DNA of 64,000 nt, taken from the IMG/VR virus record IMGVR_UViG_3300025133_000040, positions 47,832-111,831 of that record. One strand, given 5' to 3'. Of the stretch, positions 8,053 through 51,262 are shown piece after piece. Origin of the DNA: a virus. A program made the position numbers and the translations under genes. The notes beneath the pieces were generated by a model. The model saw only the letters and a list, made by a program, of their open reading frames with translations, did not search any database and had not been told where the DNA came from. How positions within the stretch are numbered: position 1 is the stretch's first letter; each line of letters starts with the position of its first letter.

Positions 8053-8703
8053 CTAGTGTGTCCTATCTTTTGAGTTCCTGTTCATACTATTATACACCGC
8101 CATTGGCGATTGGAAGTTAATTCCATATATATTAGATGTCTTTACAGTGTCATATTGGTTTGACTTCCAGATTTTCCCGTTAGTTATGCAGGATACTCCG
8201 TACTTTTCCTGCAATTCTAAGGCCCATAGCAGGTTGTCAGAAAAATCGTCAAGAAAATTCCCATTAGACGGGTAGAAATACTCAACCCCCAGGTCGCACG
8301 CAATAGCCGTCACTTCGTAGATGGTCTTACTATCCATGGCGCGATAGTCTAGCATGACCCTGAGGGTAGACCCGTGCTCCTCACACACCTTCCTCTGGGA
8401 CTCTATATCGTCGGCAACCAGCTCAAGTTTGCGGTTGGCCGTCCATACGGTGGGTATGACCAGATTGATGGCGTTGGCCCCTCGCCTAATAGCAGAAAGG
8501 GCTGAGTGGCTACGGACAGACGACTCCAGGGTGTTCACTTCTGCCGCAATATCTATATCTTTTTTGACCACCTCGCGGAACAAAGGGATAAAAAACGGGC
8601 TCGTAAGTACGCTATTGCACCCTAGCTCTATAGACTGGAAGAAGCCCTGTAGGGCATCATCCTCTTTAAGGTCTCTTCCTTTGATTGTTACTTCCTTATA
8701 CAC
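8053..8703 (-). CDS. degenerate deoxyribose-phosphate aldolase (DeoC)-like TIM barrel
   Basis: AIRRGANAINLVI, DDI, LRVMLD, GVEYFYPSNG; catalytic lysines appear absent. Confidence 0.65.
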   Translation of the reverse strand: MYKEVTIKGRDLKEDDALQGFFQSIELGCNSVLTSPFFIPLFREVVKKDIDIAAEVNTLESSVRSHSALSAIRRGANAINLVIPTVWTANRKLELVADDIESQRKVCEEHGSTLRVMLDYRAMDSKTIYEVTAIACDLGVEYFYPSNGNFLDDFSDNLLWALELQEKYGVSCITNGKIWKSNQYDTVKTSNIYGINFQSPMAVYNSMNRNSKDRTH

Positions 8704-9397
8704 TTAGCACTTTCTCCCTAGCCTTGGCTGTAGTCTCATACCCTTCGTCACCGATTACGCCGTCAGCAAAACCATAATAGACCGCCTCTTTAGCGGTGAG
8801 CCACCACTCCTCTTTCAGGTCCATCTTCTTCTGAAGGAACGTCTTAACGGCCTTTTCCCCCATGTTTCTTTCCTTGAAGTATTCACCACCAACGCACACT
8901 CTAACGTAGTTGTCAAGCATAACGTCACAGGTCTTCTTTAGTTGCTCGGCCTCGGTTAGGAACTGCTTAGAGGTTCCAACCATACCTGCGCTACCATGGT
9001 GAATCATAAAAGAACAATTAGGCATCAACAGCCTTGTGTCTGCTGCCTGCATCATAATGCTGCTCATAGAAACAGCCCAGCCATGAGAGATAGACAGGAT
9101 GTGGCAGGTAGAATGGGCAATGGCATCGTATATAGCCATCCCGTAGGGCCACTCACCACCAGTACAACAGAAGTGTACTGTTATGGGTTCACTATCAAAG
9201 GCTTCCAGGTATCTCAGATTCTTTATAAAGACATTAGCCACGCTAAAATCTATACCTGATTCTAAGCTTTCATCGTCGTAAGATTCTGAGTTAACGAATA
9301 TCTCTTTGGAGTCTATATGAATACCTTGATTGTGCATTACTTCCAGCGCCCCGTGCCTCTGGGGTACTGTTCTTTTCTTTACACTAGGTATTGCCAT
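8696..9397 (-). CDS. clpP: ClpP-like protease subunit
   Basis: GGEWPYGMAIYDAI, AVSMSS (Ser), FMIHH (His), LTAKEAVYYGFADGVI. Confidence 0.9.
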   Translation of the reverse strand: MAIPSVKKRTVPQRHGALEVMHNQGIHIDSKEIFVNSESYDDESLESGIDFSVANVFIKNLRYLEAFDSEPITVHFCCTGGEWPYGMAIYDAIAHSTCHILSISHGWAVSMSSIMMQAADTRLLMPNCSFMIHHGSAGMVGTSKQFLTEAEQLKKTCDVMLDNYVRVCVGGEYFKERNMGEKAVKTFLQKKMDLKEEWWLTAKEAVYYGFADGVIGDEGYETTAKAREKVLSV

Positions 9398-9932
9398 TTT
9401 TTACTCCGTCCGTTTCCTTAGTTGTCTCGTCCAACAACCACGGAACAGATGATGGGTCTTGAGCACTGAGCAAGTCAGTGATGCGCTTACGGCTCCTCTT
9501 CTGTTGGTGGGGCTTGGTCTCTAGATTTTTAAAGTGCTCGTCAACTTGCTTGCTAATGCTGCTAAACACCTCACTGGGCTTGAATAGCTTACCTACGGCG
9601 ATTCTCATACGTAAAGGAGACATAACCTCAAAGGACTCGACGCCTAAAGTTTCTGATACAATTTCACAAATCGGATAGCTAATATTAAAGGAGGTATGAC
9701 CCTGCCAAAAATTCATAATATCCATAAGAGCCCTAGGGCCAACGAGAGGTATGACGCCATGGTCACTAATTAGAACTCTGTGTTTTTTACCTACAGGGTG
9801 AGGCCCATCAAGGGGTTCGCCTTCAAATTCGTCGTCAAGTCTATCGTCTGCGTCTGGGTCATAGTCAAACTCTGTGTCGTCAGCAAATGGGCTTGCCCAC
9901 TTCTCCCAAACGATTAGGTTTTTATTTTTCAT
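9384..9932 (-). CDS. hypothetical protein
   Basis: TAATG translational coupling to thyA. Confidence 0.75.
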   Translation of the reverse strand: MKNKNLIVWEKWASPFADDTEFDYDPDADDRLDDEFEGEPLDGPHPVGKKHRVLISDHGVIPLVGPRALMDIMNFWQGHTSFNISYPICEIVSETLGVESFEVMSPLRMRIAVGKLFKPSEVFSSISKQVDEHFKNLETKPHQQKRSRKRITDLLSAQDPSSVPWLLDETTKETDGVKNGNT

Positions 9933-10846
9933 TATACCGCTACCTCTCCGAAGTCAAGTTTAGAGTGAGGATTATAGTCAATTAGTTCCGTCTTGTCGTG
10001 TGTCCAATCAAAGATGCTGAATTGTTTTTCCTCTGGATGCAGCTTCAACTTAGGTAGTTGTCGCGGCTTCCTCTTTAGCTGTTCCTTCGCAACTTCAATC
10101 TGATTCTCATAGATGTGTGCATCACATAGGGTGCCGCTCAGATTTCCAGGCTTAAGCCCCGAGTCCTTACATAGTAGCTCCAATAGGAGCCCGTAACTTG
10201 CGATGTTGAACGGTACGCCCAGCATCATGTCGCATGAACGCTGCGTCCAGTGTAGGCTTAGTTCGCCATCAATGTGTGTTAGTATCCACATAAGGTGGCA
10301 GGGCGGTAGGGCCATAGCCTGAATCTGGCTAGGGTTCCACGCACTCACTACTAGTCGTCGGTCGTCAGGATTGTTTTCTAGTTTGCTTACCACTTGCTTG
10401 AGCTGGTCGATGCCTTTTAACTGGCCGTCACAACCCTCACTATAGACTTCGTTCCATTTGCGCCACTGGTAGCCATAGATGGGTCCAAGGTCATCCACTC
10501 TTTTTTGTATTTTTTTTCTGTTTGGAAACGGGTAGTCAATACCATTATTGATAACATTTAAATCCCCATGAACTATCCTGTCAACCTCTACAGGATTGGC
10601 CCACTCGTCCCATATCTTACACTTGCGTTTCTGATACCAAGACTTAGAGGTGATACCCCCTATGAACCCCTCTAGCTCAACAGCCATGGTTCGGAAGGCA
10701 AGCTTCTTAGTCGTGCAAGCAGGGAAGCCCTCGTGCATCTCATGTGAGAAGAACTGGTTGGGACATACTATGGTCTTACCGGCTCGTGTGTCCTTGGGCT
10801 TACCCTTGGACAGGATATTGTCTACAATGTCAAGATACTGCTGCAT
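9932..10846 (-). CDS. thyA: thymidylate synthase
   Basis: LGPIYGYQWR, MALPPCH, QRSCD, GVPFNIASY, DAHIYENQ. Confidence 0.97.
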   Translation of the reverse strand: MQQYLDIVDNILSKGKPKDTRAGKTIVCPNQFFSHEMHEGFPACTTKKLAFRTMAVELEGFIGGITSKSWYQKRKCKIWDEWANPVEVDRIVHGDLNVINNGIDYPFPNRKKIQKRVDDLGPIYGYQWRKWNEVYSEGCDGQLKGIDQLKQVVSKLENNPDDRRLVVSAWNPSQIQAMALPPCHLMWILTHIDGELSLHWTQRSCDMMLGVPFNIASYGLLLELLCKDSGLKPGNLSGTLCDAHIYENQIEVAKEQLKRKPRQLPKLKLHPEEKQFSIFDWTHDKTELIDYNPHSKLDFGEVAV

Positions 10847-37932: not shown

Positions 37933-38769
37933 AAAAGGGTCAATGAGACTATAATCACCATGAGTAATCTTTTGTTGTCGTACTCACAACGTCCGTTGGA
38001 CGATTTACGCCTCCGAAGAGAACTCCTGCCAGGGAGTCGATTAACAACGTGTCCACCTACCAAGTAGGTAATCACTCGCGACTGCAATATTTAAGAGCCT
38101 GCGTTAGCTCTATCTAAACAACTACTCAACCGCATCCATTAACTCTGCCTTGCGAGCAGTTCAACTCCGCTAGGAGTTTAGTCGCTTTCCTCGATTAACT
38201 TGATTGACCTTGCGAGTCGCCCAAGTCAGTATTACCCCGAAGGGCTACCGAATTAAGTCGCTTTCGTTGTCTAGTGTGTCAGGACTTTTGCTTTGGTTAA
38301 AAATACAGGAATCGAACCCATACAGATTGTTTGATACAACAATTGCCCTACCGTTAGGCTAATTTTCATTTGGCGAGAGACGTGCTGACACAGTTGCTCC
38401 ATATCCTTTTGGGATGCAGAATACAACACGCCTCTCTGTACAGAGTCTTGCGGACTCTTATACCGTAGTTCAAGAGAAGGTGTGCCCCCTCTCTCTCATA
38501 CTACCACATCCCACTTGTTTGCAGCTTGCAGAATGTAGTTACTGTTCCTTCCTCAGAAGTAAACTGTTAAATCCCTATCCCAGGCTATCACCTCTGGGAA
38601 GTAGTCGATAGTGTTACCCTCGTGCTACTTTCAGGCAGTCGTTCTTCCTATTGCCCATTACAGGACAACAAGGAAAGGTCAGCTTGAATGAATGGACTCT
38701 TACGAGCGACAGCTTGCCACGCTGCCTTTGGGGAGATTGCTCTCCTTACCCTAATGACTTCATACAGCC
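37933..38769 (-). ncRNA. GOLLD-like giant RNA (~840 nt)
   Basis: lies in a tRNA array; GTGTTGTATT..CAAAAGG..AGCAACTG segment, CTCGCAAG hairpins, 3' TAGTCTCA, embedded tRNA-like element. Confidence 0.75.
38294..38368 (-). ncRNA. tRNA-like element embedded in the GOLLD-like RNA
   Basis: D and T arms, encoded CCA, non-canonical anticodon loop TGTATCAA. Confidence 0.65.
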
Positions 38770-48711: not shown

Positions 48712-49513
48712 ACTCTTTTATTGTATATTGAATGTCGGCTATACGAGCCAGCATGGGTTGCCTGTCAAACGTAATCGGCTCAATAGTGTCAAGTATATCG
48801 TGCTGATAGTAGTCGTAGCAAATACAAGCCTTGTCCGTTACGACACAAGGAACACCTTGGACTATCGAATCTATGGCTGCGTTGCTGCTTTTAGTTATTG
48901 TGGACCACGCATTATTAAGTGCCTTGCTTATCTCCTTAATGTTTAGTCCGTTAATACCTTTAGGAACTGAAGGTGCCATGGGATGTGCTTTGAAGTATAC
49001 CTTCTTCTTTGTTTCTCTGGATATTAACCTTCCCCATTCAACATACTCTTTCATAAAAGATTGTGGCTTAGCCTTTAAGAACCCGTTTGGGTTCTGCCCT
49101 AGCACTAAAATATTGCCACCTTCAGTCCTCCATGGTTTAACGTCGATGTCAAACGATTCAAGCCTATCGTAGTTTTCTTTTATTTCTCCAAAATTAGCAA
49201 AGTTTTTAAATCCGTTCAACCCAAGAACCCAGTACGTTTCCCTTTCCTTGTTTATGTATCCAACATCTATAATTCCGTAGGGCTTGTTCTCCCCCTTACA
49301 TATATTAGCTATTGTCTTACGAGCAGCGGCCCAAGCTACTCCGCTCACAACGGGCGCTCCAGTCATAATAACTGCGTCGTATTTTTTTATGTGACCTAGC
49401 TGGGTAATAGGAACTATAGTGGCGCTGTCTGTCTTGTTGATTCCAGACTCTAAATGCTCAATAAGCTTATTATTTTTTGTGCTTGGTTTTGTGTTGAATA
49501 TAGCAACCTTCAT
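48668..49513 (-). CDS. capsule/glycan-related GT-B-like protein
   Basis: FKAHP, SSNAAIDSIVQGVP, QYTIKEF. Confidence 0.6.
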   Translation of the reverse strand: MKVAIFNTKPSTKNNKLIEHLESGINKTDSATIVPITQLGHIKKYDAVIMTGAPVVSGVAWAAARKTIANICKGENKPYGIIDVGYINKERETYWVLGLNGFKNFANFGEIKENYDRLESFDIDVKPWRTEGGNILVLGQNPNGFLKAKPQSFMKEYVEWGRLISRETKKKVYFKAHPMAPSVPKGINGLNIKEISKALNNAWSTITKSSNAAIDSIVQGVPCVVTDKACICYDYYQHDILDTIEPITFDRQPMLARIADIQYTIKEFGEGLPWQRIRDYV

Positions 49514-50196
49514 CAGTAGTCCATCCCTATGTCTCTTGCTGCCTCACGCCACTCGTCGGCGTAGTCACAGTCCTTGTAATCGTCGAACCAAGGACCGCCC
49601 TGAGTGTAGTGGATGACCTTTGGTTGTTCCTCTGGCTTGTCGTACTCGCCCTCAAGCCAGTTATAGGTCAATGGTAGCTCACCTATCTCAGAGTCGTCCA
49701 GATGGGCAAACCTGTGAAGCTCAGAAGGTGTTGCCAGATTGACACGATTGACGTGTAGGGCCTTGTTGGAGGGATGACCACAGTTCCACAGAACGCATGA
49801 GGACCAGTTCTTTCGAGGGTATGACACTTGCTTCTGACCGTCCATCTTAATACTCTGACGAGGTGTGTAGTCGTGCTTGACTACATGAACGGCTTTTCTG
49901 TCGTCGGCGTAGTCAAATATCTCTTCAATGTTACAATTGAATAAAAAGTCACAGTCGCAGAACAAAGCGTGCCCGTTGAACTTCATCGACCAGGGGACCA
50001 GGAAACGAGTGTAGGTAAACTCCACAGAGCAAGGCTCACTTCTGGGCCTGTAGTACACCCCCATCTTACGTAGCACTTCTTGCTTAAGTGGGTGTATCCT
50101 TACCGAATTGGGGGATATGTGCCTGTGAATAGAGTTGACACATACTCGATATGCGTCCTCTTCTCTGCTGTCCCAGCCAATAAATACATCAAACAT
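49513..50196 (-). CDS. glycosyltransferase (GT8-like)
   Basis: FIGWDSRE, EFTYTRFLVP, FCDCDF, RKNWSS, HYTQGGPWF. Confidence 0.88.
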   Translation of the reverse strand: MFDVFIGWDSREEDAYRVCVNSIHRHISPNSVRIHPLKQEVLRKMGVYYRPRSEPCSVEFTYTRFLVPWSMKFNGHALFCDCDFLFNCNIEEIFDYADDRKAVHVVKHDYTPRQSIKMDGQKQVSYPRKNWSSCVLWNCGHPSNKALHVNRVNLATPSELHRFAHLDDSEIGELPLTYNWLEGEYDKPEEQPKVIHYTQGGPWFDDYKDCDYADEWREAARDIGMDY

Positions 50197-50224
50197 ATTA
50201 TAAGTTTCCTGTTGTGAGTATGTA

Positions 50225-50252
50225 TAAAAAAAGCCCCTCGATTGAGGGGCTG
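50225..50252 (-). terminator. tmRNA terminator
   Basis: AGCCCCTC AATC GAGGGGCT followed by a T run. Confidence 0.85.
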
Positions 50253-50254
50253 AG

Positions 50255-50606
50255 TGGAGATGCGGGGAGTCGAACCCCGGTTCTGCATTGAAACCACATA
50301 AACATTCTACGTGCATAGTAACTACTTTTTAGGTCGAGTAACCAGACCGATACGTCTTTCCGTAAGTCAAACCGCTCTTAAGCGGCCAAAGCAGCATCAA
50401 AACTGGATGCACTGACTACGCTGACCTGCGCAGTTGAGGTTCCGTTAAAGCTACGGAAGGAACTCTTTTTGGAAGGCGAACCAACCAAAGCAACATCAAA
50501 GCTGTTGTTAGCATTTAAAATTGTAAACGATTTTTTACGTGGCCCTTCGTTCAACCACGGCACGCTACTTACACTTTATCCAACCAGTCGATACCATTTC
50601 ATCCCC
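50255..50606 (-). ncRNA. ssrA: tmRNA
   Basis: 5' GGGGATGAAATGGTATCGAC, 3' GGTTCGACTCCCCGCATCTCCA, G3:U, tag frame ending ALAA*. Confidence 0.95.
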
Positions 50607-50617
50607 GGTCTACTTAA

Positions 50618-51262
50618 TTATACACCTTTCATCCCAAATATTTTATCATAATCTAAAAATCTCCAATCTCCGAAGGCTGGAATGTCCTTTGGCTCATCTT
50701 CGTTAACGCCTTCAATGTAAAATTTTGCCTCCTGCCAACTGCCGAAAAACATTTCGTGGCTCAGTCCGAGCCCCCAAAGGAAGTTCGGAACCCCTCGCTT
50801 GCCTTGCTTGCACACCAAAATGACAGGTTTCTTCTCAAGTGAAGCGTACGTCAATTCGGTATTTGTACCTGACGAGTGTACGTCAGTGTCAATATGGACG
50901 ATGCAGAAGTTGCAAAGGTCAATGAGGTGTAGGTCGGCCCTGACTACCTGTTTAGATAGTCTTTCGACTTCATCCCACTTGCTTAATCCTTTTAGATAAT
51001 TAATGTGCTCGTAGTAATTGTCATTCTCCTCTAGGGAGTCTACAATCGGGTTGTCGCAAGGGTTGAGAACACCAATACCCAAATTCCAGAGGAAATCAGA
51101 CATGTCTTCTCGCCACCCAACGCCACGGTCCTCTACGAAGTCCATAGGCCCAGCTAGGTAGCACATTGAGCCACCGAGCCTATTTGTCTTTTTCCTCACC
51201 TTGTCTTGTCCTGCTTGCCAAGCTAATAACTCTTGTGCGTCCATTAAAACCATCCATCCCAA
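50618..51262 (-). CDS. nucleoside 2-deoxyribosyltransferase-like protein
   Basis: YLAGPMD, WRE, LNPC, D, SGTNTEL, KPV. Confidence 0.75.
   Translation of the reverse strand: MGWMVLMDAQELLAWQAGQDKVRKKTNRLGGSMCYLAGPMDFVEDRGVGWREDMSDFLWNLGIGVLNPCDNPIVDSLEENDNYYEHINYLKGLSKWDEVERLSKQVVRADLHLIDLCNFCIVHIDTDVHSSGTNTELTYASLEKKPVILVCKQGKRGVPNFLWGLGLSHEMFFGSWQEAKFYIEGVNEDEPKDIPAFGDWRFLDYDKIFGMKGV

What the first reader, a model, noticed from the sequence alone, without database searches (positions are those of the whole stretch)
50378..50512. tmRNA with a 44-codon, internally duplicated proteolysis tag
Seen: after the usual resume context (TTAAAT-GCT) the frame reads ANNSFDVALVGSPSKKSSFRSFNGTSTAQVSVVSASSFDAALAA*. 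Typical tags are about 10 residues. NSFDVALVG and SSFDAALAA are near-repeats, also at nucleotide level. The RNA is still only 352 nt, so the long frame occupies the region that normally holds pseudoknots 2-3. The phage also encodes a ClpP. Inference: a rewired trans-translation tag with a long Ser-rich linker and two recognition motifs.
Basis: partly seen in the sequence, partly recalled or inferred. Interest (0 to 1): 0.72.

Follow-up and report, generated by a model that had tools for sequence, protein, structure and literature searches.

The report
Phage tmRNA with 44-codon tag
A marine phage that probably infects Planctomycetota carries its own ribosome-rescue RNA (tmRNA), and its "destroy-me" tag template is 44 codons, about five times the host-type length, because the first copy of the tag end has no stop codon and the frame runs on to a second copy 99 bases downstream; whether the extra length does anything is untested.

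Summary
Window 50255-50606 (minus strand) is a one-piece tmRNA (Rfam 119 bits) with a G3:U70 pair, PK1, a TATAAT box and a terminator. From GCT at 50512 the frame stays open for 44 codons to TAA at 50380-50378.

The resume codon is supported. It lies 26 nt after the PK1 element GGCCAC, and in 80 Planctomycetota tmRNAs with the same PK1 signature this distance is 24-29 nt. ARAGORN picks the same codon but has a hard limit of 33 codons, so it misses the gene.

The tag end occurs twice, 99 nt apart (18 of 20 bases identical). Copy 1 has a UUCG hairpin where relatives have the stop. Copy 2 ends ALAA, with TAA in a helix-5 loop.

One relative (L101) keeps the whole frame. Half of its six substitutions preserve a hairpin inside the frame, so the linker looks constrained as RNA.

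Translation, a two-motif function and a ClpP link are untested. The "ClpP" looks like a head-maturation protease. Other phage tmRNAs of this type have frames of 15-29 codons. Earlier notes of this scan report 26-35-residue phage tags on other DNA.

Verdict: the most extreme case of lengthening I found within a known kind of RNA.

The parts
50255..50606 (-). One-piece tmRNA gene. It is 352 nt to the discriminator A, and CCA is not encoded (the next bases are CTC).
   Evidence: Rfam RF00023 scores 119.2 bits over model positions 1-374. The same hit appears in the whole virus record. The 7-bp acceptor stem has G3:U70, and two of its pairs changed on both sides in L101.
50617..50622 (-). TATAAT box 10 nt upstream of the mature 5' end. 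This is the likely -10 element, which would leave a short leader for RNase P.
   Evidence: Read from the sequence. The 60 nt upstream are almost identical in L101. The consensus scan did not report it because there is no -35 match, so this is an inference.
50524..50565 (-). Pseudoknot 1 with the signature GCGTGCCGTGGTTG...GGCCAC. Among GTDB genomes, every tmRNA found with this signature was from Planctomycetota.
   Evidence: The Rfam alignment is confident here. One stem pair co-varies in L101 (columns 48/69).
50510..50512 (-). Resume codon GCT, in the context TTTTAAAT|GCT.
   Evidence: It lies 26 nt after GGCCAC, against 24-29 nt in 80 Planctomycetota tmRNAs. It aligns with the resume codons of phage tmRNAs L102, L104 and L105. 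ARAGORN chooses it in every in-silico test.
50378..50512 (-). Tag reading frame of 44 sense codons plus TAA.
   Evidence: Translation. There is no in-frame stop. L101 keeps the frame with 6 substitutions and no indel.
50480..50512 (-). Module 1, ANNSFDVALVG. This is the ancestral tag position, but it has no stop.
   Evidence: It aligns with the 9-10-codon tags of L102, L104 and L105. It shows 0 of 33 differences from L101.
50468..50489 (-). Helix-5-like hairpin of module 1, with a UUCG loop (50477-50480) where relatives have the stop codon.
   Evidence: Predicted. It sits in nearly the same register as helix 5 of module 2 (read from the sequence).
50415..50465 (-). Two hairpins inside the frame (about 50436-50465 and 50415-50434), in the place of PK2/PK3.
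   Evidence: RNAalifold. In the second hairpin, pair 177/188 changed on both sides (C-G to U-A) and pair 176/189 improved from G-U to G-C in L101. The same changes are seen in an RNA-library contig.
50378..50410 (-). Module 2, ASSFDAALAA plus TAA. On its own it looks like a complete canonical tag.
   Evidence: It shows 0 of 33 differences from L101. ARAGORN calls GASSFDAALAA in L101.
50371..50386 (-). Helix 5: GCCGCT / AGCGGT with the TAA stop inside the loop TAAG.
   Evidence: Read from the sequence. Planctomycetota tmRNAs have the same layout. The literature places stop codons in the helix 5 loop (PMC1168896).
50485..50504 (-). Direct repeat, copy 1.
   Evidence: the repeat finder family D1. 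0 of 300 shuffles match it.
50386..50405 (-). Direct repeat, copy 2, starting 99 nt (33 codons) downstream of copy 1 and in the same frame.
50331..50364 (-). Two small hairpins after the stop. Together with the single-stranded bases beside them, they are all that remains of the pseudoknot domain, about 55 nt.
   Evidence: RNAalifold. Pairs 244/255 and 264/276 changed on both sides in L101.
50255..50319 (-). 3' strand of helix 2, the T arm and the 3' acceptor strand.
   Evidence: Rfam alignment. T-arm and helix 2 pairs co-vary in L101.
50232..50251 (-). Intrinsic terminator directly after the gene.
   Evidence: scan_promoters_terminators found 8 pairs (6 of them G-C) followed by a T run. It is conserved in L101.

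Best explanation
This is a working, phage-borne tmRNA of the Planctomycetota type.

Shown:
- The tRNA-like domain, helix 2 and PK1 are intact.
- The canonical resume codon is GCT at 50512-50510.
- The position where host and phage relatives have their stop (codons 9-11) reads on. A hairpin with a UUCG loop sits where relatives have helix 5 and the stop.
- The frame crosses this hairpin, two more hairpins that stand in the place of PK2/PK3, and a fourth that overlaps the start of module 2.
- It ends in a second copy of the tag end, 99 nt downstream and in frame, with TAA in the loop of a canonical helix 5.

Inferred:
- The RNA is charged with alanine and, together with host SmpB, enters stalled ribosomes.
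- The ribosome resumes at GCT and, finding no earlier stop, must read all 44 codons. It adds Ala plus 44 residues ending ...FDAALAA.
- Only the C-terminal module acts as the ClpXP/ClpAP-type degron.
- The first module and the Ser-rich linker are mainly a spacer. Their sequence is held by RNA folding and by the need to stay open, not by a peptide function.
- The form most likely arose by duplication of about 26 nt or more of tag end plus helix 5, together with loss of the upstream stop and shrinkage of the pseudoknot domain.
For: - Family membership and intact ends are shown.
- Purifying selection acts on the RNA. Ten base pairs changed on both sides between the window and L101, in the acceptor stem, helix 2, PK1, the T arm and three hairpins. 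The promoter region and terminator are conserved.
- The resume codon rests on three lines: distance and context match 80 of 80 Planctomycetota tmRNAs, it aligns with the resume codons of phage tmRNAs that have 9-10-codon tags, and ARAGORN picks it for every test tag of 9-33 codons.
- There is no in-frame stop before 50380.
- The frame ends with ALAA and a stop in a helix 5 loop, like host tags such as AEDSFALAA.
- The repeat is significant and in frame.
- The frame is kept whole in L101, with both modules invariant, while the rest of the tmRNA differs by 22-27%.
- The linker changes follow RNA pairing.
- The window allele is identical in several marine DNA data sets, and the L101 allele occurs in a metatranscriptome contig. 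The latter is only a weak hint of RNA.
- Other phage tmRNAs of this PK1 type also have lengthened frames of 15-29 codons.
Against: - There is no direct evidence of charging, trans-translation or the tagged product.
- Only two haplotypes were found, so staying in frame is weakly tested. Six substitutions and no indel is not a demanding test, and 8% of shuffles stay open for 44 codons.
- Three of the five changed codons are non-synonymous.
- PK2 and PK3 are not recognisable. [quoted passage not shown]
- ARAGORN places the tag of L101 at module 2.
- The window has TAGTC three bases upstream of the module 2 GCA. From memory, this resembles the E. coli sequence just upstream of its resume codon.
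- No SmpB gene is in the 74%-complete record.
Confidence: 0.55

Rival explanations
1. This is the first reader's reading: a bipartite functional tag. The 45-residue tag is made, and both FD(V/A)AL motifs are recognised. For example, the internal one binds an adaptor or a second protease, and the terminal ALAA is bound by ClpX. The Ser-rich linker is the spacer between them. Rescued proteins would then have a phage-specific fate.
For: - Both modules are invariant between the two relatives, while the linker and the rest of the RNA vary.
- Lengthened frames recur in phage-borne tmRNAs of this type (15-29 codons) but appear in none of 80 chromosomal ones. This suggests selection in phages rather than accident.
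- From general knowledge, the E. coli tag has separate SspB and ClpX determinants, and the 27-residue Mycoplasma tag co-evolved with Lon (Ge & Karzai 2009, cited in PMC11986505).
Against: - Invariance of the modules is explained equally well by RNA constraints. Each module lies in a hairpin, and only two sequences are available.
- No adaptor or matching protease was found. The ClpP-like gene looks like a head-maturation protease.
- The linker substitutions follow base pairing rather than residue conservation.
Confidence: 0.2
2. Translation resumes at module 2, at AGT or GCA (50413-50408). This would give a normal 10-11-residue tag, (S/G)ASSFDAALAA. Module 1 would be a relic that merely happens to be open and in frame.
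For: - ARAGORN calls exactly this tag in L101.
- Module 2 alone has the length and form of host tags.
- In the window, TAGTC directly precedes AGT. From memory, this resembles the E. coli upstream context.
- The one codon that would be the resume codon differs between the relatives (AGT versus GGT). Ser and Gly resume codons are known (PMC1168896).
Against: - That site lies 125-128 nt after the PK1 element, against 24-29 nt in 80 of 80 relatives, and four hairpins lie in between.
- The canonical site is fully preserved in position and context and aligns with working relatives.
- ARAGORN's call in L101 is forced by its 33-codon limit.
- The A at position -4 relative to GCA is missing.
Confidence: 0.1
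3. The RNA does not carry out full trans-translation. It would be a decaying gene, or a decoy that occupies host SmpB, AlaRS or ribosomes. Under that reading the long frame has no meaning.
For: - PK2 and PK3 are not recognisable.
- A phage tmRNA reduced to the tRNA-like part, which inhibits the host tmRNA, is on record (phage DS6A, PMC11915505).
- The tRNA-like domain has diverged unusually fast between two close relatives.
Against: - That divergence is compensatory and keeps all helices and G3:U70.
- PK1, the resume context, helix 5 with its stop, the TATAAT box and the terminator are all intact.
- A meaningless frame would not be expected to end in ALAA-stop inside a helix 5 loop.
Confidence: 0.1
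4. This is a translational hop. The peptidyl-tRNA takes off in repeat copy 1 (for example at TTG, codon 9) and lands on the same codon in copy 2, 99 nt downstream. The product would be an 11-residue tag, ANNSFDVALAA.
For: - The 20-nt repeat offers matching take-off and landing codons in the same frame.
- A stable hairpin with a UUCG loop starts right after the possible take-off site. From memory, this recalls the take-off hairpin of phage T4 gene 60.
Against: - There is no stop codon after the take-off site.
- I found no nascent-peptide signal.
- From memory, 99 nt is about twice the T4 gene 60 gap.
- Nothing here requires a hop, because the frame is simply open.
Confidence: 0.02

Closest known systems
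Chromosomal one-piece tmRNA (SsrA, Rfam RF00023) of Planctomycetota (Pirellulales, Planctomycetaceae, Gemmataceae, Thermoguttaceae, Kuenenia)
   Same: It shares the PK1 signature GCGTGCCGTGGTTG...GGCCAC, the spacing and context of the resume codon, a tag start of the A-N-x type, the tag end (A/S)-(L/M)-A-A, and a stop in the helix 5 loop.
   Different: - Host-type tags are 9 codons in 76 of 80 cases (8-10 in all); this frame has 44.
- Host RNAs, where read in full, are about 350-390 nt and carry a long pseudoknot domain after the tag. Here only about 55 nt follow the stop before helix 2, and PK2/PK3 are replaced by hairpins inside the frame.
- This gene lies in a phage rich in tRNA genes.
Phage-encoded tmRNAs
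   Same: These include the two-piece tmRNAs of marine pelagiphages and the OM43 phage Melnitz, tmRNAs of huge phages, and IMG/VR contigs L102-L123, L263, L266, L317 and L338. A phage carries its own ssrA, often beside tRNA arrays. About 2.3% of sequenced phages do so (PMC9004378; PMC7162821). Relatives with the same PK1 type are confirmed by Rfam.
   Different: - Those relatives have frames of 8-29 codons. None has 44 codons or the 99-nt in-frame repeat.
- The papers I read say nothing about the length of phage tmRNA tags.
- Earlier notes of this scan describe phage tags of 26-35 residues on unrelated DNA. I did not check them.
Extended tmRNA tags of Mycoplasma and Ureaplasma
   Same: These tags are about 27 residues and are recognised by Lon. 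They show that a naturally long tag can be functional and can co-evolve with a protease (Ge & Karzai 2009, cited in PMC11986505). The published range of tag length is 8-35 residues (PMC8012679).
   Different: - Here the frame exceeds that published range.
- It ends in a ClpX-type ALAA rather than a Lon-type ending.
- It contains an internal duplicate of the tag end.
- It belongs to a phage whose host lineage has 9-codon tags.

Membership tests
One-piece tmRNA (SsrA, Rfam RF00023) | Scores above the family's curated cut-off over the full model | tested here: met
   119.2 bits against a cut-off of 47, over model positions 1-374. L101 scores 129.7 bits.
One-piece tmRNA (SsrA, Rfam RF00023) | tRNA-Ala-like domain: 7-bp acceptor stem with G3:U70, a T arm with a GGTTCGA-type loop, and no anticodon arm | tested here: met
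   The pair list shows G-U at columns 3/350 in both sequences. Acceptor and T-arm pairs changed on both sides and were kept. The Rfam alignment agrees.
One-piece tmRNA (SsrA, Rfam RF00023) | PK1 followed at a short fixed distance by a GCN/GGN resume codon | tested here: met
   GCT lies 26 nt after GGCCAC, against 24-29 nt in 80 Planctomycetota tmRNAs. One PK1 stem pair co-varies.
One-piece tmRNA (SsrA, Rfam RF00023) | Short tag frame (usually about 10 codons; published range 8-35) that ends in hydrophobic residues with the stop in the helix 5 loop | tested here: inconclusive
   The ending (ALAA) and the stop in the loop TAAG of helix 5 are met. The length of 44 codons lies outside the published range (PMC8012679; PMC11915505).
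One-piece tmRNA (SsrA, Rfam RF00023) | Pseudoknots PK2-PK4 between the stop codon and helix 2 | tested here: not met
   The Rfam alignment of this part has low posterior probability and many non-canonical pairs. Folding gives simple hairpins, four of them inside the frame and two after it. From general knowledge, these pseudoknots are dispensable or replaced in some natural tmRNAs, so this does not exclude membership.
One-piece tmRNA (SsrA, Rfam RF00023) | Works with SmpB, alanyl-tRNA synthetase and EF-Tu in trans-translation | not testable with these tools
   No SmpB gene is in the 112-kb record, which is 74% complete. A host SmpB would have to serve.
Planctomycetota-type tmRNA (host lineage) | PK1 signature GCGTGCCGTGGTTG-N7-GGCCAC | tested here: met
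   In GTDB genomes, every listed hit with this spacing that is a tmRNA comes from Planctomycetota. Two other listed hits with this spacing (Rufibacter, Verrucomicrobia) lie in non-tmRNA sequence, and the hits from other phyla have other spacings and are not tmRNAs.
   Window 8696-9397 (minus) scores 29-70 bits against ClpP cut-offs of 228-361. Its best matches are ClpP-related head-maturation protease families.

The most novel reading that the evidence does not exclude
Phages that carry their own tmRNA may lengthen the tag systematically, so that rescued proteins get a fate the host tag would not give. In this case the 45-residue tag would be bipartite. An internal copy of the degron core plus a Ser-rich spacer would recruit an adaptor or a second protease, or would keep the substrate clear of the ribosome tunnel. 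The terminal ALAA would engage ClpX. The coding frame would at the same time take over the structural role of PK2/PK3.
Probability: 0.2. Interest if true: 0.75.

Novelty: new variant of a known kind. Interest (0 to 1): 0.55.

Why it matters
- Trans-translation is universal in bacteria, and its tag is normally about 10 residues. A natural tmRNA whose ribosome must read 44 codons through folded RNA would test how far the circular tmRNA can be threaded through the ribosome without PK2 and PK3.
- It would also test whether tag length itself carries function.
- The contrast between 80 host-lineage genes with 8-10 codons and phage-borne genes with up to 44 suggests that phages alter what happens to rescued proteins.
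- There is a practical consequence. ARAGORN cannot report tags above 33 codons, so surveys based on it miss or mis-call such genes. The published range of 8-35 may therefore partly reflect the tool.

Tried and rejected
- blastn of the gene against 50,697 phage records found no match.
- A degenerate pattern that included the AAAT context hit only an unrelated AT-rich coding gene (L008-L013).
- The tag-start pattern found nothing in IMG/VR. In the metagenome collection it found only L101.
- I looked for relatives through the downstream glycosyltransferase. It returned 80 loci of much larger phages. 48 of their records were searched, and none has a tmRNA.
- The upstream neighbour (50618-51262) has no relatives in IMG/VR.
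- Searching the spurious 61-aa ORF over the tag as if it were a protein found one relative, P0002, which has the same tag as L101.
- Read laying gave only the two known haplotypes. The RNA-library contig has depth 2.9 and does not prove transcription. Parts without cover are not evidence.
- A tandem duplication of the whole 99-nt unit is rejected. Identity at offset 99 is at background level outside about 26 nt.
- An assembly artefact is rejected, because independent assemblies agree.
- Other genetic codes were considered and are irrelevant, because the frame contains no TAA, TAG or TGA.
- The papers gave no maximum tag length beyond '8-35', and the supplement of the 2025 tmRNA database paper holds no tag table.
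- No structure prediction was run, because the product is a short, probably disordered peptide.

Full report
**1. The observation**

On the minus strand of the window, Rfam finds a full-length tmRNA at 50252-50606 (RF00023, 119.2 bits, cut-off 47). The same hit is the only tmRNA in the 111.8-kb IMG/VR virus record that holds the window. The gene has several expected features:
- a 7-bp acceptor stem with G3:U70;
- a T arm, a long helix 2 and a classical PK1;
- a TATAAT box 10 nt upstream of the mature 5' end;
- an intrinsic terminator directly after the 3' end, at 50251-50232.

It is 352 nt to the discriminator base, and CCA is not encoded.

The tag end occurs twice. A 20-nt direct repeat (18 of 20 identical) lies at 50485-50504 and 50386-50405, with starts 99 nt apart (33 codons) and in the same frame. 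None of 300 dinucleotide shuffles of the RNA reached even 17 of 20. The similarity covers about 26 nt only. At offset 99 the rest of the RNA is at background identity, so this is not a recent tandem duplication of the whole 99-nt unit. An open frame of 44 codons or more arises in 8% of shuffles, so openness by itself proves little.

**2. Why ARAGORN is silent**

ARAGORN reports 30 tRNAs in the window but no tmRNA, even at lowered thresholds. As a software diagnostic I placed a stop after k codons and made the two preceding codons Ala-Ala. ARAGORN then called the gene for every k from 9 to 33, always with the resume codon at GCT 50512. It never called it for k from 34 to 44.

The miss is therefore a hard length limit, and the program agrees on the resume codon. 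In the relative L101, ARAGORN reports GASSFDAALAA, which is the second module. Given the limit, that call is forced and is not evidence.

**3. Relatives**

Direct DNA searches found little. Treating the spurious 61-aa ORF over the tag as a protein found a second version, P0002. A metagenome scan then gave its DNA, L101, a 32-kb JGI contig whose flanks are 88-98% identical to the window. L101 has a tmRNA of 129.7 bits with the same 44-codon frame.

Within the gene the divergence is very uneven:
- 5' part: 22%;
- tag frame: 4.4%, with both modules at 0 of 33 and the linker at 6 of 69;
- 3' part: 27%.

The fast-changing parts keep their helices. Ten predicted pairs changed on both sides and stayed paired, in the acceptor stem, helix 2, PK1, the T arm and three small hairpins. 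So the RNA is under selection as a tmRNA.

Six substitutions fall in five codons of the frame. Two codon changes are synonymous and three change the residue. Three of the six substitutions restore or improve pairing in one hairpin inside the frame (CTGCGC/GCGTAG becomes CTGTGC/GCACAG). The linker therefore looks constrained as RNA.

Public read sets add nothing beyond these two haplotypes. The window allele is identical in several marine DNA data sets. The L101 allele appears in a 193-nt contig of a vent metatranscriptome at depth 2.9, which is at best a hint of RNA.

**4. Where translation should resume, and what the host lineage does**

The PK1 element GCGTGCCGTGGTTG...GGCCAC was scanned against one genome per GTDB species. 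Every tmRNA it found, among the hits whose organism was listed, belongs to Planctomycetota. The few hits in other phyla lie in coding DNA. This makes a planctomycete host likely.

In 80 such tmRNAs the resume codon lies 24-29 nt after GGCCAC, in contexts such as TTAATT, TCAATT or TTAAAT. The tag is 9 codons in 76 of them and 8-10 in all, for example AEDSFALAA and ANRQFSLAA. The apparent long tags given by ARAGORN for five of them are mis-placed starts.

In the window the GCT lies 26 nt after GGCCAC in the context TTTTAAAT, whereas the GCA of module 2 lies 128 nt away. The GCT also aligns with the resume codons of phage-borne tmRNAs L102, L104 and L105, whose tags have 9-10 codons.

**5. Anatomy**

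Module 1 (ANNSFDVALVG, 50512-50480) stands where relatives have their whole tag. Where they have helix 5 with the stop in its loop, module 1 has a hairpin with a UUCG loop and no stop. Two more hairpins follow inside the frame. They lie where the Rfam model expects PK2 and PK3, and the alignment there is poor.

Module 2 (ASSFDAALAA, 50410-50381) starts in a short hairpin of its own (about 50394-50410), which makes four hairpins inside the frame. It looks like a complete host-type tag and ends in a canonical helix 5, GCCGCT/AGCGGT, with TAA in the loop. This is the layout seen in the planctomycete genes and described in the literature (PMC1168896).

Only about 55 nt, with two small co-varying hairpins, separate the stop from helix 2. 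The two modules have different but internally complementary helix strands, so both hairpins have been maintained since the duplication.

**6. Most likely mechanism**

If the RNA works at all, a ribosome that resumes at the canonical codon has no stop before 50380. It must add Ala plus 44 residues ending in ALAA. I put 0.55 on this together with the view that only the C-terminal module is the degron and the rest is a spacer shaped by RNA folding.

The rivals are:
- resumption at module 2 (0.1);
- a decoy or decaying gene (0.1);
- a 99-nt translational hop between the repeats, which would give ANNSFDVALAA (0.02).

Everything after 'has no stop before 50380' is inference. No tool here shows charging, tagging or degradation.

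**7. The ClpP remark**

The ClpP-family gene is at window 8696-9397 on the minus strand. Its best matches are ClpP-related head-maturation proteases, and it scores far below all ClpP equivalog cut-offs. It lies next to a thymidylate synthase gene rather than head genes, so its role is open. It gives no support for a phage-specific degradation pathway. No SmpB gene is in the record.

**8. Comparison and novelty**

Phage-encoded tmRNAs are known. About 2.3% of phage genomes have one (PMC9004378), as do huge phages (PMC7162821). Published tag lengths are 8-35 residues (PMC8012679), with 10 the most frequent and 2 the shortest (PMC11915505). Long tags of about 27 residues are known in Mycoplasma (cited in PMC11986505).

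Among IMG/VR tmRNAs with the same type of PK1, frames from the canonical-distance resume codon range from 8 to 29 codons. Eight of 17 exceed 12 codons, and six of these genes were confirmed by Rfam at 111-154 bits. None of the 80 chromosomal genes exceeds 10 codons. The two pattern sets are not strictly comparable, because the viral scan used a looser pattern.

Earlier notes of this scan describe phage tmRNAs with tags of 26, about 30 and 35 residues on other DNA. I did not check them, and they share no sequence with this one.

This gene is therefore a new variant of a known kind. It has the longest frame I could find, it is built from a duplicated tag end, and its coding frame occupies the pseudoknot region. 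ARAGORN, a program widely used to find tmRNA genes, cannot see it.

**9. Limits**

- Only two haplotypes were found.
- I could not consult a survey of the full tmRNA database.
- The host is inferred only from the PK1 signature.

Noticed in passing
window 50255-50606 compared with L101 3310-3662: Between two phages whose flanks are 88-98% identical, the tRNA-like domain, helix 2 and the 3' part of the tmRNA differ by 22-27%, with compensatory changes. The tag frame differs by only 4.4%. L101's first 20 nt are identical to chromosomal Planctomycetota tmRNAs (L146, L153), whereas the window's are not. This points to fast adaptive change or gene conversion of the tRNA-like domain.
   Followed up: partly
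ARAGORN v1.2.41, tested on window 50200-50700: ARAGORN has a hard limit. It calls tags of up to 33 codons and never 34 or more. It also mis-places the start of long tags, for example in L123, L113, L186 and L101. Surveys that rely on it cannot see long-tag tmRNAs.
   Followed up: yes
L123 10359-10764, L263 5751-6165, L107 1968-2241, L338 3602-3984, L266 2696-3047, L317 4086-4475: These other phage-contig tmRNAs have the same PK1 type and are confirmed by Rfam. Their frames from the canonical-distance resume codon are 28, 29, 21, 19, 18 and 15 codons. The 80 chromosomal Planctomycetota genes have 8-10 codons. The tag of L123 shares an F-D-V start motif with the window.
   Followed up: partly
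window 37943-38436 (minus): A GOLLD RNA scores 171 bits in Rfam. It holds an embedded tRNA-like piece that ARAGORN reports as a tRNA with a two-base anticodon (38294-38368). An earlier agent of this scan has already followed it up.
   Followed up: no
window 18443-44615 (minus): Thirty tRNA genes, all on the minus strand, lie in several arrays. No SmpB gene is present in the record.
   Followed up: no
window 8696-9397 (minus): A ClpP-family protein best matches ClpP-related head-maturation proteases, yet it sits beside thymidylate synthase (9932-10846) rather than head genes. Its role is unclear.
   Followed up: partly
run X18 (vent metatranscriptome), laid on window 50532-50576: A 308-nt RNA-library contig at depth of about 6200 shares 45 nt of the PK1 core (7 mismatches). 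It continues into a tag that starts GCC AAT TCT. This is probably an abundant cellular tmRNA of the planctomycete type in a habitat that also holds the L101-type phage allele.
   Followed up: no
L118 around 4049: A tmRNA 5' part with the same PK1 stem is followed by unrelated sequence instead of the rest of PK1 and a tag. It may be an interrupted or intron-bearing tmRNA gene.
   Followed up: no
window 49513-50250 (minus): The gene just downstream of the tmRNA is a glycosyltransferase (phrog_28018). Homologues at 49-61% identity occur in many aquatic phage contigs of much larger estimated genome size, and at 34-49% in Synechococcus, Pelagibacter and Caulobacter phages. None of the 48 IMG/VR records searched has a tmRNA.
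   Followed up: partly
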